A stretch of 64,000 nt of DNA from a virus. The stretch lies in the IMG/VR virus record IMGVR_UViG_3300032053_012801; one strand, written 5' to 3'. The notes under the pieces are model-generated. The model saw only the letters and a list, made by a program, of their open reading frames with translations. It did not search any database and was not told the origin of the DNA. The translations under genes were made by a program, and so were the position numbers. Positions 36,295 through 64,000 of the stretch are shown here, in pieces; position 1 is the first letter of the stretch; each line of letters starts with the position of its first letter.

Positions 36295-36361
36295 CTAATT
36301 CATAAATTTGAAAAAGCTGATGACATAGAATATGTTATCAGCTTTTTTTTTGATCTCTTAG

Positions 36362-39503: not shown

Positions 39504-40438
39504 TCTATACTATGTCTTATTGGCATTGGTATAAGTACTGTAGTATTGAAGTCAAAAATATTACAGCAGATGTTGAACCAAGTAAAGATGATTGGTTTGT
39601 AGTATTTCAACCTTATGATGCTGCTCGCAGAGAACTAGTATCAGCAGTCATTGACAGATTTGACTATTCAAAACGAGTATTGATTCATTACGAGGGTCGT
39701 TATCGTCAGCCTCATGGATTTAGACTAAGATATCAGCAAAAGTTTGGAAGAATCTATACTTATAATTCGACTGATGTTGATGGTGACACTGTTAAATATA
39801 TGCCGATACCGATGTGGATTACTGAAGATGAATGTTGTCCAGTCAATAACCGATCAAAATTCATTGGTACTGTTATAACCAACTATTTTCGTGATGGTGA
39901 GCCAAGAAACACTATAATTCGCAAGTTCAAAGATTTGGGTATGGATGTTTATGGAAGTTCAGATAAACCAGTACCATTAGAAATTAAGAAAGATTCTAGT
40001 GATGCTTGCGACAAAAACTTACCGCGATATTCTGCTAAAGTGAAACTGCTATCAGACTATACGTTTGCTTTTGCTATAGAAAGTCAATTAGATTTGGGTC
40101 ACTTGACTGAAAAACCGTTCGATTTGATAGCAGCTGGTTGTATACCTGTTTATTTAGGGCCAAAAGATGCGTCAACATTTATTCCTAAAGAGTGCTACGT
40201 TGATTACAGAGATTTCTGGTCTGAAGCTGATCTAATGAAATATCTTAAAAGCATGTCGCGACAAAAAATTCAAGAGTATCAGCAATCAATTGCAAAACAT
40301 CAAAAAGTCTTAGTTGGTATGAGAACTTTTGAGTCATGCATGAGATTTCTATGTAAAGACTTAGGATTTGACTGTCAGTCACATTATCACGATCAATTAT
40401 TAGAACTGTCAAATATACTTGCAACAAGGACAAAATAA
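39479..40438 (+). CDS. GT10-like glycosyltransferase (alpha-1,3-fucosyltransferase-like)
   Basis: FAFAIESQLDLGHLTEKPFDLIAAGCIPVYLGP resembles the GT10 AFENS...TEK...G.VPVV motif block. Confidence 0.45.
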   Translation: MAIDGATMIYTMSYWHWYKYCSIEVKNITADVEPSKDDWFVVFQPYDAARRELVSAVIDRFDYSKRVLIHYEGRYRQPHGFRLRYQQKFGRIYTYNSTDVDGDTVKYMPIPMWITEDECCPVNNRSKFIGTVITNYFRDGEPRNTIIRKFKDLGMDVYGSSDKPVPLEIKKDSSDACDKNLPRYSAKVKLLSDYTFAFAIESQLDLGHLTEKPFDLIAAGCIPVYLGPKDASTFIPKECYVDYRDFWSEADLMKYLKSMSRQKIQEYQQSIAKHQKVLVGMRTFESCMRFLCKDLGFDCQSHYHDQLLELSNILATRTK

Positions 40439-40968
40439 TGAAGTTACATTTAGGTTGCGGCAAACGATATATCCCTGGCTATACGCACATTGATGTTATA
40501 GAATACCCTCATATTGATATAGTGAATAGTGTTGATCGTCTACCAATGATTGAAGATGAATCATGTGATGTAGTTTATAGTTGTCATGTATTAGAGCACT
40601 TTCACAAAAAAGTCATTATAGATGTTCTTCATGAATGGTTAAGAGTGCTAAAAGTAAATGGTACATTGAGAATATCTGTGCCAGATATGCAAAGTCTACT
40701 TAAAGTATATGAGAAAACAGATGATATTTCATTAATACTAGGCCCTATATTTGGTAGGTGCAATTACTTGTACAATTTTCACTATACAGGATTTGACTTT
40801 AAGTCTTTGAAACATGTACTTGAATTAGCAGGTGCAAAAGATATTAGACGTTATGATTGGAGACTAACAGAGCATGCAGATGTTGATGACTACAGTCAAG
40901 CATATATTCCACAAGATAAAATAAATGGAACTCTTATTAGCTTAAATGTAGAAGCGACAAAAGTATGA
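40438..40968 (+). CDS. class I SAM-dependent methyltransferase (Methyltransf_11-like)
   Basis: HLGCGKRYIPGYTHID...SCHVLEHF. Confidence 0.5.
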   Translation: MKLHLGCGKRYIPGYTHIDVIEYPHIDIVNSVDRLPMIEDESCDVVYSCHVLEHFHKKVIIDVLHEWLRVLKVNGTLRISVPDMQSLLKVYEKTDDISLILGPIFGRCNYLYNFHYTGFDFKSLKHVLELAGAKDIRRYDWRLTEHADVDDYSQAYIPQDKINGTLISLNVEATKV

Positions 40969-43900
40969 GCGTGTTTTTATCTGACTTAACAGTTTTTGTC
41001 ATAAGTAGCGGTCATAATCCTTGCTATGACGCATGCTTGCAGTCATTAAACTCTCAAACAGTTTCATTCAAAGTCGAGATTATCAAAAACGTTCATCCAA
41101 TGTCAAGAGCTTTTCAGTGCATGATAGATTCTTGCAAGACTCGATACTATATTGAAATTGATGAAGATATGGTCATGAATGCAAACGGTATTGAAACCTT
41201 ACACAAGTATGCTGTTGAATCTGCACCAATGACAGCTATGATTGCTTGTAAGTTGATTGATGTACATTTGAATTTTGAAATTTATGGTGTCAAGATTTAC
41301 AAGCACGACATACTTAAGAGATATCCATACGACTTGTCCTCAATGTCGTGCGAAGTTGAACAAATGGATAGAATGAAAAATGACAAATATGAAATTACAT
41401 TAATGACTAATGTAGTTGGCCAGCATGCACCATATTGGTCTAATGAAGGAATATTTGATAGATATCGTAATTTACTTGACAAATTCAAACAGTTCAAATA
41501 TATCTGGATGAGTGACCTACCTGTAAAGTTATGGTCAATGTTGAAAGCTGAACCAACTGAACAGAATTTATATGCTTTACTTGGTGCATATACAAGTCTG
41601 ATTACAGACGCTGTTCAAGTTGGTGAGAAAGACTTTAGAAACAGAAATACATCGTTTGAAACAATGAGAAGTTTTATGAATCCACCTGTTAGTGCAAACC
41701 TGTATCTAACATCAAAATGTAATTTCAACTGCAGATTTTGCTATCGTAATTCGCAATCAATTGAACAGTCGATTGACATGACACTAAAAAATGTCAGTGA
41801 TCTGTTAATCAAACATCCATCAATTAGAGGCGTTTGTTGTGCTGGCTACGGAGAACCTTTTTTATGTGATAGTCTTTTTGACATCATATCATTTCTAAAA
41901 TCAAGAAACAAAGTTGTTGGACTAATAACAAACGGATCACTAATAGTTGAAAAAATCAATAGCCTATTAGCAAACAGACCAGACTATATATCTATAAGCT
42001 TAAACGCGTCAAATGCAAAGATGCATAATGAAATAAACAAATCATTGATATTTAATACTGTCTTACAAGGAATAGGACTCTGCGTAAGTAATGGTTTACC
42101 CACGTATTGTTCCTACGTATGCACAAAAAGTAATCTACGATATATTCCTGAATTTTTGACGTTAGTGAACTCTTTAGGTGTAAAGACTGTGCACTTATTA
42201 AATCTGTTACCGCACTTAGCAAGCGATTATAATGACGAGTCGTTTTGGCAAGAAGTGTTAACATATGATGACAAGCATAAAATTGATGCATTACAAGATC
42301 TGCCCGAAGCTAATTTGATTAAGGTATTTCCGACATTAATAAACCGTAATGAAGTTCGTTGCAATTGTCAAATACCTTGGACTACAATAGGAATAAACGG
42401 CAATGGTAGTGTAACATTTTGCGGATCAGTTTATGCACCAAATAGAGCTAATGGATCACTTAAGAATTTTGAAAATGTTTGGTTAAATGATAGTGCTAGA
42501 AAACTAAGAGACAGTTTATGTGACGTTAATAAGATGACAGACACATGCAAAATGTGTTTCAGAAATTGGGATGAATATAAGCCACTAACAAAACAAATAG
42601 TAACACAGTCTAAACCAGTTCCTAAAAAGCTTAGAATTTGCAAAATAATTGACCAATTTGGTTGGGCATACTATTTTGTAGCAAAAGAACAACAACTGTA
42701 TTCTTCGCATGATATCACATACAAACGATTAATCGATGTCACTGACATAGATGCAGACATAGTGTACATTCATGCACCAAATATTGATCATGCTAAAATC
42801 AACAGTCTAGTTTCAGTATTAAAACAAAAAGGCATCAAAGTTATTGGTGGTTATGGTGGAGAATCAAAACTAAAATATGACACTGACCCAGATCTTATAG
42901 TGTCAATATCTATGAGACATCTGGACTGTTTGAACAACATGTATCCTAATAAGTCTGTAGCGTTTCTACCAGAATCAATTGATACCAACTTCTTTACTGC
43001 AGCCGTGAAAGATGACAATAACTTTATAGTTGGTTGGGCCGGTTGTTTGCGTGATGTAAAGCGACCACATTTACTAAATAAACTAAAATTCAATGTTATT
43101 AAGAAAAGTGACTGGGGCAAGCAGTTTTTCTCTGATGGTAGATCATTAAATGACATGAAGTTATTTTATCACTCAATTGATGTACTAGTATTGACAAGTA
43201 TTAGCGAGTGTATGCCAAGAGTAGTATTAGAGGCCATGTCTTGTGGATTGCCTGTAGTTTCAACAAGGGTTGGTTGTATAGGAATGTTGTTAGATAAAGA
43301 ATGGATCGTAAGTACATTGCCTGAAGAAAATGTTATTTCAGAAATGAACAATCGATTGTCATTACTTAGTAATAGTAAGTCACTGCGACAAGAAGTAGGT
43401 AAGAGAAATAGACAGTATATTTTGAAGTTTTTTAGTTGGGCCGCTAATCAAAGTTTATGGGATAAAGCGTTTGAATTAATTATGCAAAACAAATTCAAAG
43501 ACATAAAAAATCTTGGCGATGAATTCATACAGTCATTACCAAATTCAAATGAATTAACATTCGACAACTTAGAAGTACAAACTGAGCAAACTACTTTTTC
43601 AGAATTAATTCAATGTGAACTAGCAAAACCAGTAACTAAACCGCAAATACAAATTGAACATGAACCGTTGAAATTGCAACCCATATCTAACATAGCAAAA
43701 ATCGAATGTGTTCCTGACATAGCAAAAGTTGAATGTGCTGATGACATAGCAAAAGTCGAATGCGCTCCTGTGATATCTAGATTAGTAAAACCATTATTCA
43801 TATCTTACTACACAAAAAATACAGGCTATGAAAACGAATATAAGAAGTTGGAAGCTTCATTAAGGCGATTCAATTTAGATTATGAAATTGTCGGTATTAA

Positions 43901-44351
43901 TTCACAAGGAAGTTGGTTCAATAACTGTTTCTATCGTACAACATTTGTCAAAGACATGCTAAATAAGCATAACCGACCTGTAGTATGGGTAGATTGTGAT
44001 GCCATAATACAGCAAGATCCGCAACTTCTATCTACATTAAATGAGTTTGATTTCGCATTTCATCCAAGAATTAAATCAAATGGTAGTACTGAACTTCTTG
44101 GTGGCACTATGTATTTCAACTGTACTATCGGTGCACTAAAATTGTTAGCTAAATGGACTGAATTAGTAAATGCAGATAGAACGAAATACAGACTCGATCA
44201 ATCTTATTTGCATGAGGCAGTCAGCACATTACATTCATTGAAAGTATTTCATTTGCCATCCACTTATTGCCAAATATTTGACTTAATGAAAGATGCTGGC
44301 AAACCTGTTATAGAGCATTTTCAAGCATCAAGAAAATACAAAAATGAATAG
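40965..44351 (+). CDS. 1128-aa multidomain enzyme: GT2-like N-terminal domain + radical SAM/SPASM core + GT4-like domain + 9-aa tandem-repeat linker + C-terminal nucleotide-sugar-transferase-like domain
   Basis: The N-terminus reads FVISSGHNPCYDACLQSLNSQT (GT-A/GT2-like). Around 250-330 it reads YLTSKCNFNCRFCYRN (CxxxCxxC), GYGEPF and ITNGS. Around 465-540 it reads C.C...C(x5)C...C..C (SPASM-like twin-cluster Cys). Around 740-790 it reads VLEAMSCGLPVVSTRVGC (GT4 E-x7-E region). Around 905-930 it reads IAKIECVPDIAKVECADDIAKVECAP. The C-terminus reads VWVDCDAII (DxD-like). Confidence 0.6.
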   Translation: MSVFLSDLTVFVISSGHNPCYDACLQSLNSQTVSFKVEIIKNVHPMSRAFQCMIDSCKTRYYIEIDEDMVMNANGIETLHKYAVESAPMTAMIACKLIDVHLNFEIYGVKIYKHDILKRYPYDLSSMSCEVEQMDRMKNDKYEITLMTNVVGQHAPYWSNEGIFDRYRNLLDKFKQFKYIWMSDLPVKLWSMLKAEPTEQNLYALLGAYTSLITDAVQVGEKDFRNRNTSFETMRSFMNPPVSANLYLTSKCNFNCRFCYRNSQSIEQSIDMTLKNVSDLLIKHPSIRGVCCAGYGEPFLCDSLFDIISFLKSRNKVVGLITNGSLIVEKINSLLANRPDYISISLNASNAKMHNEINKSLIFNTVLQGIGLCVSNGLPTYCSYVCTKSNLRYIPEFLTLVNSLGVKTVHLLNLLPHLASDYNDESFWQEVLTYDDKHKIDALQDLPEANLIKVFPTLINRNEVRCNCQIPWTTIGINGNGSVTFCGSVYAPNRANGSLKNFENVWLNDSARKLRDSLCDVNKMTDTCKMCFRNWDEYKPLTKQIVTQSKPVPKKLRICKIIDQFGWAYYFVAKEQQLYSSHDITYKRLIDVTDIDADIVYIHAPNIDHAKINSLVSVLKQKGIKVIGGYGGESKLKYDTDPDLIVSISMRHLDCLNNMYPNKSVAFLPESIDTNFFTAAVKDDNNFIVGWAGCLRDVKRPHLLNKLKFNVIKKSDWGKQFFSDGRSLNDMKLFYHSIDVLVLTSISECMPRVVLEAMSCGLPVVSTRVGCIGMLLDKEWIVSTLPEENVISEMNNRLSLLSNSKSLRQEVGKRNRQYILKFFSWAANQSLWDKAFELIMQNKFKDIKNLGDEFIQSLPNSNELTFDNLEVQTEQTTFSELIQCELAKPVTKPQIQIEHEPLKLQPISNIAKIECVPDIAKVECADDIAKVECAPVISRLVKPLFISYYTKNTGYENEYKKLEASLRRFNLDYEIVGINSQGSWFNNCFYRTTFVKDMLNKHNRPVVWVDCDAIIQQDPQLLSTLNEFDFAFHPRIKSNGSTELLGGTMYFNCTIGALKLLAKWTELVNADRTKYRLDQSYLHEAVSTLHSLKVFHLPSTYCQIFDLMKDAGKPVIEHFQASRKYKNE
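43691..43771 (+). repeat. 3 x 27-bp in-frame tandem repeat inside the 1128-aa ORF (encodes the DIAKVEC(A/V)P linker)
   Basis: catagcaaaaatcgaatgtgttcctga / catagcaaaagttgaatgtgctgatga / catagcaaaagtcgaatgcgctcctgt. Confidence 0.7.
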
Positions 44352-44976
44352 ATTAGTAATCATCGGCGGCGGATCAAGCATAAAAGGATTTGACTTAGCT
44401 AAGCTCAATCATGAGTTCACATTTGGTTTGAATTTCGTTTGCCACTATTACGATCCCACAGCACTAATCTGGATTGATCGAGATTTCTACTCTAAACATC
44501 AGCAAGTAATAAACAACCTCAAATGCGTTAAAATCACAAGAGACAGTCGTGATGTGCCAGCAGACGTATTCAAGCTATTATCAGCAAAAGAATATCATGG
44601 ACTAGACGGGTTGTCAAAAGGACTGTATCATCCGTATTTAGTTGGACTATTCTCATTATCGCTAGGTATAGCTTTGAAATTCAAAGAGATTTATCTGCTT
44701 GGATTTGATGGACGATTTGTTAATGATAAGAGTCACTTTCATGACATTGTACATCGCGGTACACAAGATGAAATGGTCTATATACGAGGCAATGCTAGAT
44801 TTGATGTCTATAAAGATTGTCCATCTAAAATCTACAATGTTTCACTAGATTCAGCGATTCATGCTTTCCCAAAGATTTCATACGAACAATTTTGTAAGAT
44901 AATTGATAACAATGAGATATACACTAGTCAAGAGGCAAAAAAATGGTTAGCGTCAAATCTTCGACAACAGACCTGA
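44344..44976 (+). CDS. DUF115/Maf-like protein (possible glycosyl- or nonulosonate-transferase accessory), last gene of the operon
   Basis: N-terminal MNRLVIIGGGSSIKGFDLAKL is a nucleotide-binding-like G-rich loop, as in the DUF115/MptE-like fold. The assignment is weak. Confidence 0.3.
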   Translation: MNRLVIIGGGSSIKGFDLAKLNHEFTFGLNFVCHYYDPTALIWIDRDFYSKHQQVINNLKCVKITRDSRDVPADVFKLLSAKEYHGLDGLSKGLYHPYLVGLFSLSLGIALKFKEIYLLGFDGRFVNDKSHFHDIVHRGTQDEMVYIRGNARFDVYKDCPSKIYNVSLDSAIHAFPKISYEQFCKIIDNNEIYTSQEAKKWLASNLRQQT

Positions 44977-48962: not shown

Positions 48963-50635
48963 TATGCCTCCAGTAAATCATTCTTTGTCAACCACGCTCT
49001 ACGACCAATCCACAATCCAAATGTCTTAGAATACTGAATCTGACTTTTTTCATGAGCATCTGACCCAATAGCAATTTTGATGCCCATATCCTTACATCTT
49101 CGTATGACATCTTCATCAGCATCTAGTCTATCTGGTTGACAATTAAACTCTATGGCGACGTTATGATTCCTGCACTCTTGCAGAATTGCTTCAACATTCA
49201 TGACATGACCAGGTCGTTGATTTATGAGTCGACCTGTTAGATGACCTATGATGTGGACTTTACCAGTGCGAATTGCTTTGCAATACATTTCTGTGACATC
49301 TTGCTTTGTATGAACGTGAATTGATGCAATTACAATGTCAAGTTGGTCGAGAATTTCATCTGAGTAATCGAGTGAACCATCAGATTTAATGTTAACTTCA
49401 CTCCCCATTAATATCTTAATGGTTGGATATTTCATCCTCAAGACTTCTATCTCGCCAATCTTCCGTTTAATATCGACTGCCAGTACTTTCGTAGAAATTA
49501 CTTGTGAATGATCTGTTATTGCTATGCCCTTTAGCCCTTGCCTTATCGCAGCTTGCACCATTTCTTCAATCGTTGATTTGCCGTCAGACCATGTTGAATG
49601 AGTATGAAAATCACACTCAATATCATCGGCCTTCAATAAATTCACTGCTGGTTGATCAATGCGATACTTTCCAAACTGAGAGACATCATCACGATGTTCT
49701 GGTGGTATGAAATTGAATCCAAGGGAATTGTAGATGCTAGTCTCAGTACCATCATCAAGACGGTCACCAGTTCGTTCGTCACCGAATCGTCTGTAAAGAC
49801 CGTACTGTGATAGAATTAATCCCTTTGATTTTGCAATTCTACGAAGCTCTTCATTATGATCTGCAGAACCTGTAAGATGCATAACACCAGACTCAAAAGT
49901 GTCTGCTTCAAAGATGTAGCAATCGATGCGAATACCCTTGACCCAAACTGATGCTTTTTTCTTACCAATATCTATAACTTTATCAACTATTGGTAAGGTT
50001 GCAAATCGCTGTAAAAAATCGCTATCGCTCGATACAACTGCAAAATCAATATCACCAATGGTTGACTTTGACCGTCTGAAAGAACCACAAAATTCAATCC
50101 TGTCACAAAACTCTCTCAGTTCACTATGAATTTGTACTATTAATTCCAAAGCTTCATCAAGACGAATTCTACCACGAGTTGTCTCAAGATATTCTATGCC
50201 TTGTTTGATGTTTTCGATCGTTTTGTCTTTGAAAACCTGTGCAAGTTTGCCATTCTCAATAGCAACTTTCAACTCAGCAATCATAGATATCCCGAGTGTC
50301 TCGTAGATTTTCAATGCCTTTTTCTCGCCAATTCCTTCAATTCTAAGCAACTCTTCGACTTTCTGAGAAGCGTTCAAGCACGCCTGATTATCTACGATAA
50401 ATTGAACTTTGCCAGTAGAGAGGAATTCTAGTATACTGTTCGCAATCTTAGGACCAATACCTTTGGTGGTCAAAAGATCCAATTCTGAGACCGGCGTAGG
50501 TAGGTTAGAAATGAATTTAGCAGCTTTTCTATAGGCACCGATTGAAAACTTGTTATCATTCTGGTGCTGCTTTATTTCAGCAATGTCGTAGAGAATCTTT
50601 GCAACGTCTTGGTTTATCATATTAGTAGTAATCAT
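48962..50635 (-). CDS. polX: family X DNA polymerase (Pol beta-like) with C-terminal PHP phosphoesterase domain
   Basis: N-terminal HhH motif (KGIGPKIANSILE) and nucleotidyltransferase GSFRR...DIDF. The C-terminal PHP domain reads DFHTHSTWSDG...HVH...IIGH. Confidence 0.8.
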   Translation of the reverse strand: MITTNMINQDVAKILYDIAEIKQHQNDNKFSIGAYRKAAKFISNLPTPVSELDLLTTKGIGPKIANSILEFLSTGKVQFIVDNQACLNASQKVEELLRIEGIGEKKALKIYETLGISMIAELKVAIENGKLAQVFKDKTIENIKQGIEYLETTRGRIRLDEALELIVQIHSELREFCDRIEFCGSFRRSKSTIGDIDFAVVSSDSDFLQRFATLPIVDKVIDIGKKKASVWVKGIRIDCYIFEADTFESGVMHLTGSADHNEELRRIAKSKGLILSQYGLYRRFGDERTGDRLDDGTETSIYNSLGFNFIPPEHRDDVSQFGKYRIDQPAVNLLKADDIECDFHTHSTWSDGKSTIEEMVQAAIRQGLKGIAITDHSQVISTKVLAVDIKRKIGEIEVLRMKYPTIKILMGSEVNIKSDGSLDYSDEILDQLDIVIASIHVHTKQDVTEMYCKAIRTGKVHIIGHLTGRLINQRPGHVMNVEAILQECRNHNVAIEFNCQPDRLDADEDVIRRCKDMGIKIAIGSDAHEKSQIQYSKTFGLWIGRRAWLTKNDLLEA

Positions 50636-50673
50636 GTCAAATTGCGTAGAAATAACAGAGAGTTAACTAATTT

Positions 50674-50844
50674 CTAAAAAAACAGCGAACGTTCAAAGCT
50701 TGGCTTTTGTTGTTGCTCATTAGCAGTAAGCCTAGAATATTTTCGAATATCAAGTATGAGCAGTAATTTCACTCGCTTTATCAACCGTTTAACAGTGCTT
50801 CTGGACATGCTAAATTCTCTACAGATTTCACGAACAGTTATCAT
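50674..50844 (-). CDS. small helix-turn-helix protein (56 aa, below the track cutoff)
   Basis: MITVREICREFSMSRSTVKRLIKRVKLL... is HTH-like. It sits immediately upstream of polX. Confidence 0.3.
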   Translation of the reverse strand: MITVREICREFSMSRSTVKRLIKRVKLLLILDIRKYSRLTANEQQQKPSFERSLFF

Positions 50845-51262
50845 GCTTCGCAAAAATAGTCTATGCGTTTATCGTTGACAATTGTCGATGCAGCATGTGA
50901 CATACTATTGTGAGCTGAACATCAGTCTCATTGTCGCCAAACGATGTTTTGCCATTTTACTGCTTCTATTTAGCGACGTCGAGTCATAGAAATTTACAAA
51001 TAGTAATTTTATTTTCATTTGTAAACTTTGACATGTTTTCATCGCTGAGTCTGCGTTCAAGTACAATTGTAGAATTTGTTGTAAATTTAATGTCAAATTG
51101 ACGCGTATAATACGTTGTCTTTCGCTGCCAGAGTCAATAAGGAGATTAGTTAAAGACAGAGTCATAGAGATTTATAGCGTGACAAAGCGCTATAATTCGT
51201 CCTCGATTTCGGCCAGGATCAGTAGCTTTGAAACCGATTCAGATTCAATAATCGCTTCTCGA

Positions 51263-51300
51263 ACAGGAAAAAGGGCCGGAGTGTTTCTACTACCAGCCCT
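51263..51300 (-). terminator. candidate rho-independent terminator for the flotillin/NfeD unit
   Basis: On the minus strand: AGGGC-(19-nt loop)-GCCCT followed by TTTTTCC. Confidence 0.35.
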
Positions 51301-51317
51301 TCCCTTCTCTCAACTAC

Positions 51318-51500
51318 TTATTCGCGATCGATAGACTTGATTATTTCTTCAAGATATTTGTCATTGCCTGTTCTTTGTGCTGATTCTACTTTGTACTTAA
51401 TATCTTGAATGAAACTTTCTAACCGTTCTATCGCGACTGTTGCACCAGTAGGCCAAGACATCCATGCACTTTTACCTACTTCATCTTGTACTGTCTTCAT
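51318..51500 (-). CDS. hypothetical small protein
   Basis: 60-aa ORF directly downstream of the flotillin gene. Confidence 0.3.
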   Translation of the reverse strand: MKTVQDEVGKSAWMSWPTGATVAIERLESFIQDIKYKVESAQRTGNDKYLEEIIKSIDRE

Positions 51501-51501
51501 A

Positions 51502-52911
51502 TTAGCCCTTAACTTCAGTTGTTTCAGTTGTAATTGCCGGTTTCTCAGGAGTCTTTCCCAAATACTCTGGCAACTTCATTCCTGCCATATTGAACAAGTC
51601 TTGCAATGGAGGAACTGATCCAAGCATACCTGACAAGAAATTGGCAGTCGTTGGTTTGCCATTGCCTGAACCATTACCCATACCGTCCCAAACAGTAACC
51701 TTATCGATCTTAATACCCTTAATAGCCTCAACCTGAGTCTTGACTATTTCAGGCAACTTATCGATAATCATCAACATTGCTGCTTGCTGAGTCTGCTGTG
51801 GATTGTTACCGGCAGCTGCAACAATCTCTTTCAATCCCTCAGCCTGCTTGATCAACATCTCCTTAAGTCCTCTTGCCTGAGCTTCAAGGTTAGCATATGT
51901 GGCATCTGCTTGACCTCTAGCTTCAAGTCGCAGTTTCTCAGCCTGAGCACTAGCCGCAATCTCAATCTTCTTTTTGTCAATCTCAGCTTTGACAACATCA
52001 TTGGCAGTCTGTGTAGCTCTTTCTCTGTCTGCACGAGTCGCTTCAGCAATTTGTTCAGCAGCATAGGCTTCTTGCAAAGCTTTTGCTGTTGCAACCTTTT
52101 CTGATGCTATAGCTGCTCGTTCAGCTTCAGCTTTCTTCTGTCGCATATCTGATGTTGAATTTGCAATTGTCACCTGAGCTGCATTTTCACCTTCAACAGC
52201 TGTAGCATTTGCACCTGCAACTTGCACTCTCTTATCTCTATCAGCATTTGCCTGACCAATTGCTCCATCACGATCTTTCTCAGCTACATCTTTCTTAGCC
52301 TTGTTAAGTGCTTCTGCAGCAGCTTTCTGCCCAAGAGACTTGATGTAACCAGATTCATCTTGAATGTCAGTAATATTGACATTGATCAATCGCAGACCGA
52401 TCTTCTCAAGTTCAACTTCAACATTCTTGTAAATGTTCTCAAGGAACTTGTCTCTATCAGCATTAATTTCTTCGATGTCCATTGTTGCTACTGACAAACG
52501 AAGTTGGCCAAAGATAATTTCCCTAGCTATACCCTGAATCTCTTTGGATTGTAAACCCAAAAGTCGTTCAGCAGCAGCCGTCATAATCTCAGGCTTTGTT
52601 GAAATACCAACTGTGAAATTTGAAGGCACATCGACTCGAATATTCTGTTTGCTCAATGCATTTTGCAATGGTACTTCAATTTGCATTGGAGTAAGACCCA
52701 AATATGCATAGTCTTGAATGATAGGCCATACAAAAGCCGCACCACCATGAATGCACTTTGAAGTACTACCCTTTGCCACTTTTCCATACACAATCAATAT
52801 CTTGTCTGACGGACACTTCTTATACCTCGTAAGAACCGAGATAAAAAGCACGAACAAGATAATGACGCCAGCTGCTGCAGCAATCAACAGATACATACTA
52901 GCCCCTTTCAA
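51502..52911 (-). CDS. flotillin-like SPFH/band-7 domain protein
   Basis: N-terminal TM helix, then an SPFH core, then a long Ala/Glu/Lys/Gln-rich coiled coil (AEAERAAIASEKVATAKALQEAYAAEQIAEATRADRERA...) typical of FloT/YqiK. Confidence 0.75.
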   Translation of the reverse strand: MKGASMYLLIAAAAGVIILFVLFISVLTRYKKCPSDKILIVYGKVAKGSTSKCIHGGAAFVWPIIQDYAYLGLTPMQIEVPLQNALSKQNIRVDVPSNFTVGISTKPEIMTAAAERLLGLQSKEIQGIAREIIFGQLRLSVATMDIEEINADRDKFLENIYKNVEVELEKIGLRLINVNITDIQDESGYIKSLGQKAAAEALNKAKKDVAEKDRDGAIGQANADRDKRVQVAGANATAVEGENAAQVTIANSTSDMRQKKAEAERAAIASEKVATAKALQEAYAAEQIAEATRADRERATQTANDVVKAEIDKKKIEIAASAQAEKLRLEARGQADATYANLEAQARGLKEMLIKQAEGLKEIVAAAGNNPQQTQQAAMLMIIDKLPEIVKTQVEAIKGIKIDKVTVWDGMGNGSGNGKPTTANFLSGMLGSVPPLQDLFNMAGMKLPEYLGKTPEKPAITTETTEVKG

Positions 52912-53479
52912 CGATTAAAGTATTGTTTTGGACATCTACTACTTTTACTGGTGACCCTGACGGAATTGCCGTAAGATCTTTACTCATGGCATCAAATTCT
53001 CTTACTTGACTTTGAATCATGACATTCACTTTTCCAGTACCTGACATATTAGCAGGAATTTTCAAATAAACACTAGCTGTTCGACCAATCGTATTTTTGA
53101 TATCTACATTACCACTACTAACTAACTTTGTCATTCCATAGAAAAAACCAGCAACTACCACAGCAAATACACTACCGACTATAATCGATACAACTACAAC
53201 CAAAACAGGATTGTTCAATGCACCTTTTGCATGAATTAGTGCTATGCCACTCCAACCAAGCATTGTGAAAAACGCAACTAGCGATCTAATACTTAGCAAT
53301 TGAAAATGAGCTTGCATGTCACCATGACCACTTGACACATCGTGATGAAAGTCAATAGAATCATGCGACATACCAGCAAATGTCAAGATTGCTTGAATAA
53401 GCAATGCTGTGCTTGCTATAACTGCAATGAACCAATAGACGTGTTCAATTGCTGACATACCTACCCACCACTCGTTCAT
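52898..53479 (-). CDS. NfeD-like membrane protein (flotillin partner)
   Basis: Three or four TM helices, then a C-terminal soluble beta domain (...GTGKVNVMIQSQVREFDAMS...PVKVVDVQNNTLIVERG). It overlaps the flotillin start. Confidence 0.65.
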   Translation of the reverse strand: MNEWWVGMSAIEHVYWFIAVIASTALLIQAILTFAGMSHDSIDFHHDVSSGHGDMQAHFQLLSIRSLVAFFTMLGWSGIALIHAKGALNNPVLVVVVSIIVGSVFAVVVAGFFYGMTKLVSSGNVDIKNTIGRTASVYLKIPANMSGTGKVNVMIQSQVREFDAMSKDLTAIPSGSPVKVVDVQNNTLIVERG

Positions 53480-53713
53480 GTAGCCCTCCTTATAAATTGT
53501 TTAGCTTGTCCTCAATATAATACACGTAATCAGTGAACTGTTTTGTTCGTTTCATATCTTTTACTCTATACAATGGTATGTCTATATGCACATGTTCGAC
53601 AATTTGACCAGGATTTGCACTCATGATCCAAATATCGTCACCCAATAGCTACTTCCATAAACTTCAAAATAATTTCTTCATCAGTTGCCATATTGACAAC
53701 TAATCACACTAAA

Positions 53714-53947
53714 TTACAATGAAATATCAAACTTTGTCTTATCGTTTTCTAAAGTAATTACTCTTGCCCTAAGCTCTTGTATTTCTGAAACTGTATCTTG
53801 AAGTAACTGAAGTAGAAAATGTTCATTAGCACTCAAATGATGTTCATCTGATTTCAACAAACGAATTTGATCGATACTATATAGCACTCTATGATCATTC
53901 TTAGGCACAATCACCTCCAGTAGCAATATGCACAGCGATGAATGCAC
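53714..53947 (-). CDS. hypothetical protein
   Basis: 77-aa ORF. Confidence 0.3.
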   Translation of the reverse strand: MHSSLCILLLEVIVPKNDHRVLYSIDQIRLLKSDEHHLSANEHFLLQLLQDTVSEIQELRARVITLENDKTKFDISL

Positions 53948-54648
53948 TGAGACTTACTGTTCAACAACTCTTTTTTATTACCAAGACATGCGCAACAAGG
54001 TCTTTGCTTTGAGAACTTGTCAATAGGTTGTATACCAAGCAGTTCGCAGTCTTTAGCTGAAATACATCCTGTACATTCAAAATCTGGTTCACCACATACT
54101 TCCGGTTGACCAAGTCTTTCCCATGCCTTTTTTCTTAACTTTAACGGTGCATGAAATGTCGTCCACGGCAATTCAACATCAATATCTTTGAACCTCTTTT
54201 TGACATGATCATACTGATCAATAAATGACACTCTCACTCGAGTCTTAAATCGCTTCTGAGCCCTACACAATATGTCATGCGCCGTGTCAATACCCGCATC
54301 TGTAGGCACCACTGGGTCAATGCGCAACACTATTCTTTGCGGACCTAACAATTTACAAAGTTCTTCAAATCCTAGTAACGCAACGTCAACGTCAGGCACA
54401 TTTGGCTCAATTACTGATCTGGCAAAACCAGTAATTGTCGTATGTACTATGATATTTGGAAATCTGGGATAGACTTCTTCGCGTTTGCCATCTTCAATGA
54501 TAACTTTGATATGATCGAATAGGCTAAGAGGATCTTTCGTAATCAAAATAGCAGGATTACCGTCAATAACCCATTGGCACCATTGACAGTTAATAGCAGG
54601 ATCACCACGTTCTGTAATACCTATTTGATCATTCACCAACAAACTCAA
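53911..54648 (-). CDS. hypothetical Cys-rich protein
   Basis: 245-aa ORF with CQWCQW and a C-terminal CIHRCAYCYW cluster. Confidence 0.4.
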   Translation of the reverse strand: MSLLVNDQIGITERGDPAINCQWCQWVIDGNPAILITKDPLSLFDHIKVIIEDGKREEVYPRFPNIIVHTTITGFARSVIEPNVPDVDVALLGFEELCKLLGPQRIVLRIDPVVPTDAGIDTAHDILCRAQKRFKTRVRVSFIDQYDHVKKRFKDIDVELPWTTFHAPLKLRKKAWERLGQPEVCGEPDFECTGCISAKDCELLGIQPIDKFSKQRPCCACLGNKKELLNSKSQCIHRCAYCYWR

Positions 54649-54786
54649 CTATGCTTTTTGTAAAATTTATCTCTCATTCTCATCATTTGCTTACGTATAA
54701 TAACGCCTTGCTGATATTCACTATTGTTGTCATACACATCACCATCCATGTGATCAATAGCTTCATCCCACACAACCATTCTATCA

Positions 54787-55032
54787 TCAATTTGTTCTTG
54801 TGTCAGCTTTTTCATCAATACTCCTGCCCGTATGAGTCAAAAACATTTTCAATTCTTTCTTCAATCTTTCATCTGACGTTTCAGTATGAACATTTTCTGT
54901 TTTCTGATCTTCACTATTTATTGATGCCATCCATATCTCGCAAAAAGTATCCCAATTCAATTCACTACCAAGTCTACCACTATTCTTTTGCCACCACATC
55001 TTTGCAGTAGAAGTATACGCTTGATTATTCAT
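54787..55032 (-). CDS. hypothetical protein
   Basis: 81-aa ORF. Confidence 0.3.
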   Translation of the reverse strand: MNNQAYTSTAKMWWQKNSGRLGSELNWDTFCEIWMASINSEDQKTENVHTETSDERLKKELKMFLTHTGRSIDEKADTRTN

Positions 55033-55436
55033 CTGTACCGTCCCTCTCTAATACTTTGCACAGTAATCACTGTCGCTAGTTGATCACATTCAGCTTTAGT
55101 AAAGGCACCTCTACTAGTTTTCAGTAAGTACGATGACACGTTTGTATAATCTTGTTCAAGACTTATTCCGTGACCACAAGCCATTTGCGCTTCTTTATCG
55201 CTGTTAGTAAATAGTAATATTTTGTAAGCAATAGTACCATCATGTATAATTGTAGGATCATCGCCACTGAACAATGAATAGAACTTGTTTCCTTCTTTCA
55301 ATCCTTGCAAAACTACTAATGAATACTTTTTTGCAAGTGCTTTCAAACCACCAGTAAGCACGAATCGTTTGGCTTCTGCCACTGACTTACAGATTCCGAT
55401 ATCACACAAGTTTTTTGTCAAGTAATTTTCTGTCAT
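55029..55436 (-). CDS. hypothetical protein
   Basis: 135-aa ORF. Confidence 0.4.
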   Translation of the reverse strand: MTENYLTKNLCDIGICKSVAEAKRFVLTGGLKALAKKYSLVVLQGLKEGNKFYSLFSGDDPTIIHDGTIAYKILLFTNSDKEAQMACGHGISLEQDYTNVSSYLLKTSRGAFTKAECDQLATVITVQSIREGRYR

Positions 55437-56332
55437 ACTCTTTTGAATTCGAAGTGACGTTTGAAATGACTCAAATCAGTAACAGTTCGTAGAAATTTCA
55501 AATAGTCTTTTGCTTCAGCTAAGTCAACCCTTGTTGAACCTTGATATGAAATATATCGAATCTCAACTGCACCTTTAGAGGCTGAAGCGCCGCATGCAAA
55601 CAAAGGCGCTCGATCTTCTTCATAAAGTTTCACTAACCGTTGCAACCTTTTCAATTCTGCAGTAATTGCGTCTGAAACTTCTAACGCAGTCATATCATCA
55701 ATTGGCTTCTCTATTCTTTGTTTCAATTCATACACTTCTTTAACAGGCTTTATATCAGATGCTGGTAACAGCTTATTTGATTGCTGCAGTAAAGGAGCGA
55801 CATCTACATTTTGAACACCGCGTTCAGTGAGAAACATTGCCAGTTGACTCTTTGCACATTCCTGCATTGTCTTTATTTCTTCGGATGCCTGTTGTACGAT
55901 GAAAGCTGAATTTGATTCAAAGTGCTCTTCAATGACTTTAGCATTGTGAAGTAACTGTTCAAGCGTTTTCTTTCCAGCTTTTCCATCATTGAGAGCTTCG
56001 TAAATATCTTTTCTTAAGTCCTTTATCCTATTACTAAGCGATTCATGAACTTCACCCATTCTGTCAACCATTCGATCTTGAACAGATTCAGGCTTTTTCA
56101 CGGCTTCAACTACCAAGTTACCTTCACGATCACGATATCGTTCTAATGTGACAGTTACAGAACTTGTATCAGTAAGTATTCGAACAAACTGATCATAAGA
56201 CATTGCCATTCGACACAATGTCTTTTTGTCAGGATCTTCAATCTCTAAACACAAATAGTGATGCTGCGCTTGCAAACAATCATTCAAATATGTGCCTGAT
56301 GAAGACACTGAAGAAAGTCTAGCGTGAGACAT
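55433..56332 (-). CDS. hypothetical protein
   Basis: 299-aa ORF. Confidence 0.45.
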   Translation of the reverse strand: MSHARLSSVSSSGTYLNDCLQAQHHYLCLEIEDPDKKTLCRMAMSYDQFVRILTDTSSVTVTLERYRDREGNLVVEAVKKPESVQDRMVDRMGEVHESLSNRIKDLRKDIYEALNDGKAGKKTLEQLLHNAKVIEEHFESNSAFIVQQASEEIKTMQECAKSQLAMFLTERGVQNVDVAPLLQQSNKLLPASDIKPVKEVYELKQRIEKPIDDMTALEVSDAITAELKRLQRLVKLYEEDRAPLFACGASASKGAVEIRYISYQGSTRVDLAEAKDYLKFLRTVTDLSHFKRHFEFKRV

Positions 56333-62135: not shown

Positions 62136-62926
62136 GCATTGTCCTCCTCTAGTATTTTTTTAGCAAGAAGCTTACCGTTTTCATTAATGTTATGAGGGCA
62201 ATCAGTCCATGAACACCATTTACAATTATCACTTACTACTTTCTCAAAACAATCTGCTTCTATTGCATCGAACATCTTGTCAACTTTTTTCATCACAGCG
62301 TAATAATCTTCATCTGTAACTTTCACATCAACTATTCTATTCTCTTTCTTTGACGGATGCACAAACCTCACGCAATCTTCAATCATATCAAATTGCTTAG
62401 CAAGAGCCCAACTGTAAAGTATCGCCTGCAATCTATACTTCTCTGCACTGTGTTTGCCTGTTTTCCAATCCAAAATGTAGATCTTACCATTTACTTCAAT
62501 AAGTAAATCCATGTACCCGTGAACATTAATCAAAAACCTACTATTACTATACGGTTGCTTAAATTCAAGCTCTGACCCTATAGACTCATGCATCCAATCG
62601 TTCTCTTTTGCCATAGCGACCCAGTTTTTTATCAGCGTAAAACCTGAGCCTCTTGCATATTTCAATTCTATTTTTTCAGCCTTTTGCACTTTGACTTCAA
62701 TATCAAAAAATTTCTCCCAATTTTTGAACAGATCATATACTCTAAACGTTTTTTGTTCGTAAAATGACTCTAGTAATTTATGAAATGCTTGACCAAGCAC
62801 TAATGGAGCACTTGGCACTTTAAGAGTCGGGCGCTTAAGCACTTTATCTTGCTTAAACGCCCAAGGACACGTGCAAAAGTAATTTATTGTGGATGCTGAT
62901 AAATTGAAATCAAGCTTTTTCAACAT
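62132..62926 (-). CDS. PD-(D/E)XK nuclease, Cas4/RecB-like with Fe-S Cys cluster
   Basis: N-terminal C(TCPWAF) plus C-terminal CKWCSWTDCPH (3-4 Cys). Core D..ELE..K-like catalytic residues (GYMDLLIEVNGKIYILDWKTGK). Confidence 0.6.
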   Translation of the reverse strand: MLKKLDFNLSASTINYFCTCPWAFKQDKVLKRPTLKVPSAPLVLGQAFHKLLESFYEQKTFRVYDLFKNWEKFFDIEVKVQKAEKIELKYARGSGFTLIKNWVAMAKENDWMHESIGSELEFKQPYSNSRFLINVHGYMDLLIEVNGKIYILDWKTGKHSAEKYRLQAILYSWALAKQFDMIEDCVRFVHPSKKENRIVDVKVTDEDYYAVMKKVDKMFDAIEADCFEKVVSDNCKWCSWTDCPHNINENGKLLAKKILEEDNA

Positions 62927-64000
62927 TCTTCCTTACTGAATCAGACAACCACTTTGTAGCCTTTTCATGCTTAACAGCTGTTTCACTCGCACGATAATTT
63001 GTATCCTTCTTCAAATTCTCAAGAACAGCTTCAATCTCCTTATCACTCTTGTTCAGAGTCTTAGCTCTATTAACAACAAAAGCTTCAACTTCTTCTTTAG
63101 ATGCAGTAAAGTTATTGATCATACTAACATGATCTAAAAATATCTTTACTTCAAGAGTCTTTTCAACTCGAGGTCTCTTTTGAGCATAAAATACGTCTTT
63201 ACCATTCTTATTCTTCTTCAAAAACTCATCTTCAGTCGTTCCCATACGATACAACAGTTGATGCCATTCGTTAGCAAGTTCCCATTCAATCATAGCTGTA
63301 GGTATCGGCTCAATCTTGGCCTTCAATACACACTGTGTCAAAATGTCAGACTCATAATTCTCTTCATCAATTTTAGCATGATCTACAATAAGTTTGTCAC
63401 GAATAGCTTGTCGAAATCCATCCATGGTCTTATCATCATCACTTGCAAGCTGCTCAATTGTCTTAATCTGTTTTGAACCGATTTTTGTAATCTTCACAGT
63501 GAATTCAGCGTTCTTACCTTGTAACTCTTTTGCATGATAATCATCAGGAAACTTAGTTATGACCTTACCTTCTTCATTCAACTTGAACTTGACCATTTGC
63601 TCTTCAAAACCACTAATGAATTTTGTCTCACCAACAACAAATCTAAAATTCTTAGCAGTTCCACCAGAAAACGATTTACCATCTACTTGACCTGAAAAAT
63701 CTATGATCAAAGTGTCACCATTTTTGATCACATAATTTGAATCAGTAATATTCTCAAACAAAGCTTTTGAATTTTGTATTGTCTTAATCTGATCATCAAC
63801 CATTTGTTCTGATACTACTGTGACATTTTTCACTGCACTAACTTCATTAATGTCAAACCGTTCAACTGCCGGTTTCAAATACACTGTAGCCTGAATTGTC
63901 AATGGCACATTATCCTCAAATGGACCAACGACTTCAAAATCAGATGCTTCAACAACTTCAAGCTTCAATTGTTCAAGAGCTCTTTTGTACAGCACATCAA
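62910..64000 (-). CDS. tig: trigger-factor-like protein (ribosome-associated chaperone with PPIase-domain homologue), N-terminus outside the window
   Basis: IDFSGQVDGKSFSGGTAKNFRFVVGETKFISGFEEQMVKFK and FPDDYHAKELQGKNAEFTVKITKI align with E. coli Tig [41 protein letters not shown] and [24 protein letters not shown]. The track ORF begins at 63995, but the homology implies more N-terminal sequence upstream. Confidence 0.7.
   Translation of the reverse strand, partial: DVLYKRALEQLKLEVVEASDFEVVGPFEDNVPLTIQATVYLKPAVERFDINEVSAVKNVTVVSEQMVDDQIKTIQNSKALFENITDSNYVIKNGDTLIIDFSGQVDGKSFSGGTAKNFRFVVGETKFISGFEEQMVKFKLNEEGKVITKFPDDYHAKELQGKNAEFTVKITKIGSKQIKTIEQLASDDDKTMDGFRQAIRDKLIVDHAKIDEENYESDILTQCVLKAKIEPIPTAMIEWELANEWHQLLYRMGTTEDEFLKKNKNGKDVFYAQKRPRVEKTLEVKIFLDHVSMINNFTASKEEVEAFVVNRAKTLNKSDKEIEAVLENLKKDTNYRASETAVKHEKATKWLSDSVRKNVEKA

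What the first reader, a model, noticed from the sequence alone, without database searches (positions are those of the whole stretch)
51502..53479. Phage-borne flotillin(SPFH)-NfeD membrane pair
This is an overlapping two-gene unit, NfeD-like (4 TM helices plus a C-terminal beta domain) followed by flotillin-like (N-terminal TM, SPFH core, ~250-residue A/E/K/Q coiled coil). It has its own downstream terminator.

The bacterial yqiJ/yqiK and nfeD/floT operons organise membrane microdomains and regulate membrane proteases. Such a pair in a viral accessory region is uncommon. It could scaffold replication or assembly at the membrane, tune lysis timing, or mediate superinfection exclusion.
Basis: partly seen in the sequence, partly recalled or inferred. 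Interest (0 to 1): 0.6.

Follow-up and report, generated by a model that had tools for sequence, protein, structure and literature searches.

The report
Phage copy of bacterial NfeD–flotillin operon
A large, uncultured bacteriophage carries an intact, selectively maintained copy of the bacterial two-gene operon (NfeD plus flotillin) that builds protein cages on the cell membrane, and the same pair recurs in many other large phages, but what it does during infection is untested.

Summary
On the minus strand, 52898-53479 encodes a short-form NfeD protein: three transmembrane helices and a C-terminal OB-like beta domain. 51502-52896 encodes a flotillin: an N-terminal TM helix, an SPFH domain, a 210-residue A/E/K/Q-rich helical region and a conserved C-terminal strand.

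Four details need correcting:
- With the ATG start used by public gene callers, the genes do not overlap (TAG-t-ATG).
- NfeD has three TM helices, not four.
- A third coupled 60-aa ORF (51318-51500) precedes the terminator.
- The terminator lies at about 51266-51306.

The window looks like a large phage. It has 30 tRNAs, RtcB, RNA ligase, homing endonucleases and a group I intron, with a replication block upstream. Its closest relative is a 128-kb IMG/VR contig. No virion gene was seen.

The flotillin is 56-69% identical to chromosomal flotillins, mostly of Bacteroidota. Those genes carry the same NfeD gene upstream in 75 of 78 loci.

The pair recurs in about 60 IMG/VR contigs from several divergent clades, and it is the only shared module. 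dN/dS is 0.05 for flotillin and 0.15 for NfeD.

Verdict: a host-derived membrane-scaffold module, a new member of a known kind. Its role in infection is inferred, not shown. Interest is moderate.

The parts
52898..53479 (-). nfeD-like gene, 193 aa, short form. Three TM helices, a His/Asp-rich loop between TM1 and TM2, and a C-terminal OB-like beta domain. An AAGGAGG Shine-Dalgarno sequence lies at 53485-53491.
   Evidence: Pfam PF01957 30.1 bits, cut-off 29.1. AF2 model. Foldseek hits to YuaF, PH1510-C and YbbJ. 39% identical over its full length to the gene upstream of a Tenuifilaceae flotillin. Sequence read.
51502..52896 (-). Flotillin-family SPFH gene, 464 aa from ATG 52896 (alternative TTG at 52911 gives 469 aa). 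N-terminal TM helix, SPFH domain, about 210-residue A/E/K/Q-rich helices, and a conserved C-terminal KIDKVTVWD strand.
   Evidence: Pfam Band_7 E 9e-28. Human flotillin-1/2 PDB chains E 2e-24. 56-69% identity to bacterial flotillin family proteins. Invariant columns. Exact 464-aa product called in public assemblies.
51318..51500 (-). Small coupled ORF, 60 aa, soluble, no known family. It starts one base after the flotillin stop.
   Evidence: Sequence read. Called in public assemblies. Conserved in the closest relative L014 (E 1e-26) with dN/dS 0.21. Absent from bacterial operons and from other viral clades. No Pfam-type hit in NCBIfam, PADLOC or PHROGs.
51266..51306 (-). Intrinsic-terminator-like hairpin (GGGCUGG ... 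CCGGCCC) followed by UUUUU. It closes the three-gene unit.
   Evidence: RNA fold -24.1 kcal/mol, z -3.2. Not found by the pattern scan, whose loop limit is 8. The hairpin is deleted in L014.

Best explanation
This is a complete, functional copy of the bacterial nfeD-flotillin operon, captured from a bacterial host lineage (most likely Bacteroidota or a neighbouring group) by a large tailed phage. It lies in the phage's replication and nucleic-acid-metabolism gene block.

Proposed mechanism:
1. The three ORFs are translated as a coupled unit.
2. The flotillin inserts by its N-terminal helix and oligomerises through its long helices and C-terminal strand. This forms a domed SPFH cage on the cytoplasmic face of the host inner membrane.
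3. The NfeD protein sits in the membrane with three helices and binds the flotillin through its cytoplasmic OB-like domain. This promotes or stabilises assembly, as in QmcA-YbbJ and FloA-NfeD.
4. During infection the extra cages supplement or replace the host's own flotillin. They keep membrane organisation, fluidity and membrane-protein quality control working through the long cycle of a large phage.

Shown: homology, architecture, operon origin, recurrence in phages, and purifying selection.
Inferred: cage assembly, topology, expression timing, and the benefit to the phage.
For: **Family identity:**

**Bacterial origin of the whole operon**
- The flotillin is 56-69% identical to chromosomal flotillins. 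At least 598 species genomes gave matches, mostly Bacteroidota.
- 75 of 78 of the bacterial loci examined have an NfeD-profile hit directly upstream.
- The phage NfeD aligns end to end with those partners, e.g. 39% identity, E 3e-43.

**Function retained in phages**
- dN/dS between the window and L014 is 0.05 for flotillin and 0.15 for NfeD.
- All columns invariant across the alignment of 28 sequences, which includes this one and its relatives, are intact here. These include the RY..C motif after the TM helix and the C-terminal KIDK..VW strand.

**Self-contained module**
- Flotillin and NfeD are the only gene families shared by 26 representative viral loci with unrelated backbones.
- NfeD lies directly upstream in all 47 loci of the second scan that have upstream DNA.
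- Even the most remote clades link to NfeD by profile-profile comparison, at 95% and 90% probability.

**Translational coupling:** TAG-t-ATG and TAA-t-ATG junctions, each with a Shine-Dalgarno-like stretch.

**Position with replication genes:** DnaB, ligase and PolX lie on the same strand. In phage csAssE-Sib the pair likewise lies between DnaB and an exonuclease/helicase.

**Background on SPFH cages and NfeD partners:** PMC12624060 and PMC13086221.
Against: - There are no expression, localisation or phenotype data.
- The flotillin monomer model is poor (pLDDT 61), and no complex could be modelled.
- The host is unknown.
- No virion gene was seen in the window or in the roughly 20 kb inspected beyond it. 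Viral origin therefore rests on context and on IMG/VR relatives.
- In bacteria, flotillin deletions often give weak phenotypes (PMC13086221), so the benefit to a phage may be subtle or conditional.
- Vibrio phage KIT04 has a flotillin with only an 82-aa two-TM protein upstream. Full NfeD is therefore not strictly required.
Confidence: 0.55

Rival explanations
1. Protease control. Like HflK/C with FtsH, the phage cage encloses or gates a host membrane protease (FtsH or another). This would protect labile phage proteins or retune host proteolysis. It is a specialised version of the main explanation.
For: HflK/C-FtsH is the best-understood SPFH complex and controls lambda cII (PMC13086221 references). 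One source names the L014 NfeD 'membrane protein implicated in regulation of membrane protease activity'.
Against: - The protein is of the flotillin type, not the HflK/C type. PDB hits are flotillin-1/2 at 1e-24, QmcA scores only 1e-4, and HflK/C does not appear.
- There is one SPFH gene, not a paralogous pair.
- The positive-inside pattern suggests a cytoplasmic cage, unlike the periplasmic HflK/C cage.
- The NfeD here is the short form and has no protease domain.
Confidence: 0.15
2. Superinfection exclusion or counter-defence. The cages stiffen or repair the membrane. This would block DNA entry by competing phages, or blunt host abortive-infection effectors that depolarise the membrane.
For: Only circumstantial. 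It is a membrane-acting module carried by many unrelated large phages as a mobile two-gene cassette. The window is rich in other counter-defence-type genes, such as the RNA-repair enzymes RtcB and RNA ligase and the tRNA set.
Against: - Neither protein matches any PADLOC defence model.
- High identity to housekeeping bacterial flotillins and very low dN/dS are not the arms-race pattern usual for exclusion or anti-defence genes.
- The pair sits among replication genes rather than in a moron-like island with its own promoter.
Confidence: 0.12
3. Lysis-timing control. The scaffold sequesters or concentrates holin or other lysis proteins to delay or sharpen lysis.
For: Flotillins do concentrate membrane proteins (background knowledge).
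Against: - No holin, endolysin or spanin gene is adjacent in the window.
- None is conserved next to the pair in any of 26 viral loci.
- The neighbours are replication and repair genes.
Confidence: 0.08
4. Not viral. The window is part of a bacterial chromosome island, a megaplasmid or a mis-binned contig, and the pair is simply the resident cellular operon.
For: No capsid, terminase or tail gene was seen in the 64-kb window or in the flanks inspected. Three short IMG/VR contigs (L011-L013) nest inside the bacterial clade and may be cellular.
Against: - 30 co-oriented tRNA genes are interleaved with HNH endonucleases, a group I intron, RtcB, RNA ligase and a Thg1-like enzyme, all in PHROG families.
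- There are no ribosomal or core metabolic genes.
- The closest relative is on a 128-kb IMG/VR contig.
- Flotillin genes occur in bona fide phage genomes, including the isolate Vibrio phage KIT04 and phage csAssE-Sib.
- The flotillin is at most 69% identical to any protein listed from a named bacterial genome.
Confidence: 0.07

Closest known systems
Bacteroidota-type chromosomal nfeD-flotillin operon (e.g. Tenuifilaceae bacterium CYCD AP027304, Maribacter halichondriae CP107030)
   Same: Same gene order with NfeD directly upstream, same protein lengths and architectures. Flotillin is 63-66% identical and NfeD up to 39% identical over its full length.
   Different: Carried by a phage. It has an extra coupled 60-aa ORF downstream. 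The poly-Asp loop between TM1 and TM2 of NfeD is replaced by a His/Asp-rich loop.
Bacillus subtilis yuaF (nfeD2)-floT and E. coli yqiJ-yqiK operons
   Same: A short-form NfeD upstream of a roughly 500-aa flotillin with an N-terminal membrane anchor, an SPFH domain and a long Ala/Glu-rich coiled coil. The NfeD C-terminal domain of the model superposes best on YuaF 2K14.
   Different: Not an ortholog of FloT: the NCBIfam FloT equivalog model scores 169 bits against a cut-off of 700. Function in a virus-infected cell is unknown.
E. coli QmcA-YbbJ SPFH-NfeD cage (PDB 8Z5G) and human flotillin-1/2 44-mer (9BQ2, 9L3G)
   Same: These are the structural templates for how the pair would assemble. YbbJ is a Foldseek hit for the NfeD model. 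Flotillin-1/2 align to residues 44-413 of the phage flotillin.
   Different: QmcA is stomatin-like, with weak sequence similarity (E 1e-4). Human flotillins lack a TM helix and an NfeD partner. Stoichiometry of the phage complex is unknown.
SPFH-domain proteins annotated in jumbo and other phages (RaK2-like and Eneladusvirus Erwinia phages, RisingSun gp131, N4-like GIB1, Xanthomonas phage X1)
   Same: Phage-encoded SPFH proteins of unknown role. They are listed in genome papers as 'poorly understood' or 'host-metabolism-related' (PMC7760394, PMC6034870, PMC13239085, PMC13384950).
   Different: The passages retrieved from those reports describe single SPFH-domain proteins, some detected in virion preparations or annotated as lipoproteins, and name no NfeD partner. 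Here the full flotillin-NfeD operon is present and is traced to a bacterial source.

Membership tests
SPFH / Band 7 superfamily | SPFH (Band_7) alpha/beta domain after an N-terminal membrane anchor | tested here: met
   PF01145 E 9.1e-28, residues 34-213. One hydrophobic segment at 1-29.
Flotillin subfamily of SPFH proteins | Full-length similarity to flotillins, including the long coiled-coil/flotillin region | tested here: met
   phmmer to human flotillin-1/2 chains covers residues 44-413, E 1.8e-24, against QmcA at 1e-4. 56-69% identity to proteins that sources name 'flotillin family protein'.
Flotillin subfamily of SPFH proteins | Pfam Flot (PF15975) C-terminal domain above the gathering score | tested here: inconclusive
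   26.1 bits against a cut-off of 27. The database's precomputed Pfam annotation lists PF15975 for this exact protein (P0001).
FloT equivalog (NCBIfam NF058507) | Score above the equivalog cut-off (700 bits) | tested here: not met
   169.4 bits, partial match to positions 7-280 of 477. It is a flotillin but not a FloT ortholog.
NfeD family, short form | NfeD C-terminal OB-like partner-binding domain | tested here: met
   PF01957 30.1 bits, cut-off 29.1. Foldseek top six hits are NfeD C-domains, with TM-score normalised to the target of 0.35-0.81. Caveat: model pLDDT is 72 overall and about 84 in the domain.
NfeD family, short form | N-terminal multi-pass membrane region, no ClpP-type protease domain | tested here: met
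   Three hydrophobic helices. No protease domain in Pfam. Length is 193 aa.
NfeD family, short form | Gene directly adjacent to, and co-oriented with, an SPFH gene | tested here: met
   One-base spacer to the flotillin ATG. The same arrangement holds in 75 of 78 bacterial loci and in all 47 viral loci of the second scan that have upstream DNA.
SPFH-NfeD cage complex (QmcA-YbbJ type) | Physical hetero-oligomeric cage on the membrane | not testable with these tools
   No multimer prediction or experiment was available. Only the conserved C-terminal strand and helices were seen.
HflK/HflC-FtsH system | Two paralogous SPFH subunits and closest similarity to HflK/C | tested here: not met
   The unit has a single SPFH gene. 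HflK/C is absent from PDB sequence hits at E <= 1e-3.
Known anti-phage defence systems (PADLOC) | Match to a defence-system protein model | tested here: not met
   No PADLOC hit for NfeD, flotillin or the 60-aa ORF. Only the DUF1848 gene two genes upstream hits a DRT-associated model.
Phage protein families (PHROGs v4) | Match to an existing phage orthologous group | tested here: not met
   No PHROG hit at E <= 0.01 for NfeD and flotillin, and none at E <= 0.001 for the 60-aa ORF.

The most novel reading that the evidence does not exclude
Large phages of several unrelated lineages have repeatedly captured the nfeD-flotillin cassette because it actively protects the infected cell's membrane. 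It would act as a viral membrane-repair or anti-abortive-infection device, countering pore-forming or depolarising host defence effectors, or as a membrane platform that anchors phage replication or assembly. On this reading it is not a passive housekeeping supplement.
Probability: 0.12. Interest if true: 0.75.

Novelty: new member of a known kind. Interest (0 to 1): 0.38.

Why it matters
Bacterial flotillins and their NfeD partners are structurally well described, but their functions remain vague and their knockouts often give weak phenotypes.

Several findings here argue that the module gives a measurable benefit under the defined stress of infection:
- Unrelated large phages carry the complete operon.
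- They keep it under strong purifying selection.
- They move it as a self-contained two-gene cassette.

Phage systems could therefore give a cleaner assay for what SPFH-NfeD cages do. The finding also adds membrane-microdomain scaffolds to the list of host functions that big phages bring with them.

It does not reveal a new kind of system. SPFH genes in phages have been listed before, without study.

Tried and rejected
- **DNA search against deposited phages:** blastn of 50000-56000 gave no match. The phage is far from any isolate.
- **PHROGs:** nothing for NfeD or flotillin or for the 60-aa ORF.
- **PADLOC:** nothing for any of the three ORFs, so the defence-system reading was set aside.
- **Terminator pattern scan:** it found none. 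Direct folding showed the hairpin.
- **PDB sequence search with NfeD:** no hit. A fold search was needed.
- **Flotillin monomer model:** too low in confidence (pLDDT 61) to use for fold search.
- **Looking for virion genes:**
  - One look-up at the window's right end failed because that exact protein is not on record.
  - Walking left gave polyamine genes, and walking right gave replication genes.
  - No structural genes were reached.
- **Exact-match search in IMG/VR:** nothing found.
- **tblastn of a neighbouring unknown protein:** only weak hits to distant phages.
- **TAG recoding:** considered because of the CTA-anticodon tRNA. Rejected for this region, because TAG ends 17 of 72 long ORFs, including nfeD.
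- **NfeD-flotillin read-through fusion:** considered and rejected, because the two genes are in different frames.
- **Rfam on the 680-nt gap downstream:** no hit.
- **Literature searches:** no paper describes a phage flotillin-NfeD operon.
Full report
**1. What is in the sequence**

On the minus strand, the ORF listing gives a 193-aa ORF at 52898-53479 and a 469-aa ORF at 51502-52911 starting from TTG.

The DNA shows these features:
- An AAGGAGG Shine-Dalgarno sequence lies five bases before the NfeD ATG at 53479.
- The NfeD gene ends ...GAA AGG GGC TAG.
- One base later comes ATG at 52896, which gives a 464-aa flotillin.

Every public assembly that carries this exact protein calls the 464-aa ATG form. 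The most likely arrangement is therefore stop, one base, start, not a 14-nt overlap.

The flotillin ends ...AAG GGC TAA. One base later an ATG opens a 60-aa ORF at 51318-51500.

Directly after that ORF lies a GC-rich hairpin (GGGCUGG/CCGGCCC) with a U-run. It folds at -24.1 kcal/mol, z -3.2 against shuffles. The pattern scan missed it because the loop exceeds its limit.

The transcription unit therefore ends with three translationally coupled ORFs. Upstream it continues without a terminator into further small ORFs. The nearest is a 44/51-aa ORF whose stop codon overlaps the NfeD Shine-Dalgarno sequence.

**2. Family assignment: flotillin**

- The protein matches Pfam Band_7 at E 9e-28. It scores 26.1 bits on Flot, whose cut-off is 27.
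- It aligns over residues 44-413 with human flotillin-1 and flotillin-2 from the cryo-EM cage structures 9L3G and 9BQ2, E about 2e-24. The stomatin-like QmcA reaches only 1e-4.
- NCBIfam's FloT equivalog model matches only partly, at 169 bits against a cut-off of 700. The protein is a flotillin but not a FloT ortholog.
- Hydropathy gives a single N-terminal TM segment at 1-29. Residues 184-393 are helical in the model and 52% A/E/K/Q.
- The AlphaFold monomer model is of low confidence (pLDDT 61). That is unsurprising for a cage protomer, and I did not use it further.

**3. Family assignment: NfeD**

- The protein passes Pfam NfeD at 30.1 bits against 29.1.
- An AlphaFold model built from eight homologues (pLDDT 72, about 84 in the C-terminal domain) shows three long hydrophobic helices at 10-34, 64-83 and 91-122. 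It also shows a five-strand beta domain at 134-192.
- Foldseek against the PDB returns NfeD C-terminal domains as its top six hits. They include YuaF (the FloT operon partner, 2K14), PH1510-C (3WWV), 3CP0, YbbJ in the QmcA-YbbJ complex (8Z5G) and 2EXD.
- There is no protease domain, so this is the short form.
- A profile of the eight homologues finds 5,268 cluster representatives at E <= 1e-3. Most of the best-scoring ones listed are full-length proteins of 190-260 aa. This is a large cellular family.

**4. Where the window comes from**

The window carries 30 tRNA genes, all on the minus strand between 3346 and 35156. They are interleaved with:
- HNH and homing endonucleases;
- a group I intron;
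- RtcB, RNA ligase, a Thg1-like tRNA-His guanylyltransferase and radical-SAM enzymes.

Further along are an NAD-dependent ligase and a PolX-PHP polymerase. Most of these fall in PHROG families.

Identical or near-identical copies occur in several metagenome assemblies (JGI, ENA and Logan), on contigs up to about 113 kb.

Beyond the right edge, on the same strand, lie a trigger factor, a NucS-like nuclease, DnaB, a DnaC/IstB-like loader and a DEAD-box helicase. Beyond the left edge lie polyamine-synthesis-type genes.

The closest relative has a flotillin 91% identical and is syntenic. It sits on a 128-kb IMG/VR viral contig.

I did not reach a capsid, terminase or tail gene. I put viral origin at about 0.9 rather than certain. 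The exact genome is not in IMG/VR, and no deposited phage matches at the DNA level.

**5. Origin of the pair**

The 120 best-scoring homologues listed for the flotillin (out of 8,000 scored) fall into two groups:
- a few uncultured relatives at 76-91% identity;
- a broad set at 58-70%, in which the proteins that carry an organism name come from genomes or MAGs of Flavobacteriaceae, Bacteroidales, Tenuifilaceae, Chitinispirillaceae, Latescibacteria and some Bacillota.

A scan of one genome per species found at least 598 matches. The best 80 were mostly Bacteroidota, at 56-66% identity.

In 75 of 78 such bacterial loci, an NfeD-profile hit lies directly upstream of the flotillin. The phage NfeD aligns end to end with those partners:
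- 39% identity, E 3e-43, to the Tenuifilaceae protein;
- 31% identity to the Chitinispirillaceae protein;
- matches to both halves of a split gene in Maribacter.

The whole operon is therefore of bacterial origin, not only the flotillin. The 60-aa ORF has no bacterial counterpart. It is found only in the closest phage relative.

**6. Recurrence in viruses**

Among 50,697 deposited phage records, tblastn finds eight with any match. Only two carry a full-length flotillin: phage csAssE-Sib from human gut (151 kb) and the isolate Vibrio phage KIT04.
- In csAssE-Sib the gene lies between a DnaB-like helicase and an exonuclease/helicase, with a 164-aa "transmembrane protein" directly upstream.
- In KIT04 the upstream gene is only an 82-aa two-TM protein.

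In IMG/VR, two pattern-limited scans returned 20 and 50 loci, which partly overlap. Many are on contigs of 90-600 kb.

A small NfeD profile hits the ORF directly upstream of the flotillin in all 47 loci of the second scan that have upstream sequence.

For the most divergent clade (flotillins of 640-708 aa) and for csAssE-Sib, profile-profile comparison still links the upstream protein to NfeD, at 95% and 90% probability.

I clustered all ORFs from 26 representative viral loci. Only two real families are shared across clades: flotillin in 26 of 26 and NfeD in 25 of 26. The remaining clusters shared by four or more loci are antisense shadow ORFs inside the flotillin gene; the smaller real clusters are confined to three loci each. 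The pair behaves as a self-contained two-gene cassette in otherwise unrelated genomes.

A neighbour-joining tree places the window clade (window, L014, L037) next to the bacterial block, with the other viral clades outside it. The bacterial sample was chosen by similarity to this subfamily. The tree therefore cannot count acquisitions. It shows only that bacterial flotillins are closer to the window's than most other viral ones are.

**7. Selection**

Between the window and L014, synonymous sites are near saturation (dS about 1.1). dN/dS is 0.05 for flotillin, 0.15 for NfeD and 0.21 for the small ORF. For comparison, the neighbouring PolX gives 0.08.

All three ORFs are therefore maintained as coding genes while resident in phage genomes.

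All columns invariant across the alignment of 28 sequences, which includes this one and its relatives, are intact here. These include the R-Y-x-x-C motif after the TM helix and the C-terminal K-I-D-K-x-x-V-W strand. In solved SPFH cages the equivalent strand closes the dome (background from PMC12624060).

**8. How it most likely works**

From established knowledge of SPFH proteins:
- They form domed ring oligomers on membranes.
- Human flotillin forms a 44-mer.
- QmcA-YbbJ forms a cage of 26 heterodimers that protrudes into the cytoplasm.
- NfeD partners are proposed to promote oligomerisation.
- The S. aureus FloA-NfeD pair stabilises unfolded proteins under stress (PMC12624060, PMC13086221).

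I infer that the phage proteins assemble the same kind of cage on the cytoplasmic face of the host inner membrane. The positive residues after the flotillin TM helix (RYKK) and after NfeD TM3 (K, K, R) fit a cytoplasmic location for both soluble domains. This is inference from the sequence, not a test.

The pair sits on the same strand as DnaB, ligase and PolX, and in csAssE-Sib it also sits among replication genes. This suggests expression with replication genes rather than with late or lysis genes.

The most economical role is maintenance or reorganisation of the membrane and its protein complexes during a long infection.

The rival roles are protease gating, exclusion or counter-defence, and lysis timing. 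None has direct support here:
- No PADLOC model matches.
- No lysis gene is linked in any clade.
- The selection pattern is that of a conserved housekeeping-type module, not an arms-race gene.

**9. Comparison with the literature and novelty**

Genome papers list SPFH-domain proteins in RaK2-like and other jumbo phages, in an N4-like phage and in a Xanthomonas phage. They state that the role is unclear (PMC7760394, PMC6034870, PMC13239085, PMC13384950).

In the library searched I found no paper describing a phage flotillin-NfeD operon, its bacterial origin or its recurrence. That library does not include most subscription-journal papers.

The finding is therefore a new member of a known kind: a viral copy of a well-known bacterial operon. 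The modest added point is that the complete cassette is widespread and conserved in large phages.

Interest is moderate. It is not surprising for a big phage to carry host-like genes. Even so, it offers a tractable route to a long-vague question, namely what bacterial flotillin-NfeD cages are for.

Noticed in passing
window 31239-31312 (-): A tRNA with anticodon CTA, of the amber-suppressor type. ARAGORN labels it Pyl, and Rfam scores it 69 bits as a tRNA. TAG is still an ordinary stop for 17 of 72 long ORFs in this window, including nfeD, so there is no sign of recoding here. Late genes outside the window could differ.
   Followed up: partly
window 14756-14966 (-): Group I catalytic intron (RF00028, 53.6 bits, gathering score 50) inside the tRNA-rich region, close to tRNA-Met at 15179-15255. 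The interrupted gene was not identified.
   Followed up: no
window 50636-51317 (-): A roughly 680-nt stretch without a called gene, between the flotillin unit's terminator and PolX. It is 83% identical to the corresponding gap in L014, with indels that break the only longer ORF. It contains an uncalled small helix-turn-helix-like ORF (50674-50853, MITVREICREFSMSRSTVKRLIKR...). No Rfam match. It could be a regulatory region or a non-coding RNA.
   Followed up: partly
L014 11585-11640 compared with window 51266-51306: The GC-rich terminator hairpin of the window is deleted in the closest relative. That relative has only a weak AT-rich hairpin plus T-runs at this position, so the terminator is not conserved even at 91% flotillin identity.
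   Followed up: partly
window 62910-64000 (-), complete in L168 7931-9226: A full-length trigger-factor homologue (431 aa; Trigger_N, FKBP_C, Trigger_C) is encoded next to a Cas4-like PDDEXK nuclease and downstream of the DnaB/DnaC-like replication genes. This is a ribosome-associated chaperone in a phage-like genome.
   Followed up: no
window 53911-54636 (-): A DUF1848 protein (241 aa) lies two genes upstream of nfeD. It matches a PADLOC model of a defence-associated reverse-transcriptase system component (RTasDUF1848, E 3e-15). DUF1848 genes also lie upstream of the pair in L014 and L037.
   Followed up: no
window 52898-53479, NfeD residues 36-57: The loop between TM1 and TM2 is His/Asp-rich here (SHDSIDFHHDVSSGHGDMQAH). 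In bacterial and other viral homologues it is a poly-Asp DxDxD tract of variable length. This may be a cation- or metal-binding loop that differs in the window clade.
   Followed up: no
window 35614-44976 (+): The only plus-strand block in the window. It includes an 1128-aa radical-SAM plus glycosyltransferase fusion and a sialyltransferase-like protein (phrog_4603), which suggests a glycan-modification cluster.
   Followed up: no
L031 6020-8361 (left of the window): Ornithine/DAP/arginine-decarboxylase-fold and saccharopine-dehydrogenase-fold genes lie side by side. This is the pattern of carboxynorspermidine decarboxylase and dehydrogenase (polyamine synthesis), on a contig of a closely related strain that covers the window's left end and extends beyond it.
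   Followed up: no
L021, L022, L025, L027 (about 9730-9970): In the most divergent viral clade, a conserved 63-64-aa ORF is inserted between the NfeD-like gene and the flotillin. It shows no detectable similarity to the window's downstream 60-aa ORF.
   Followed up: partly
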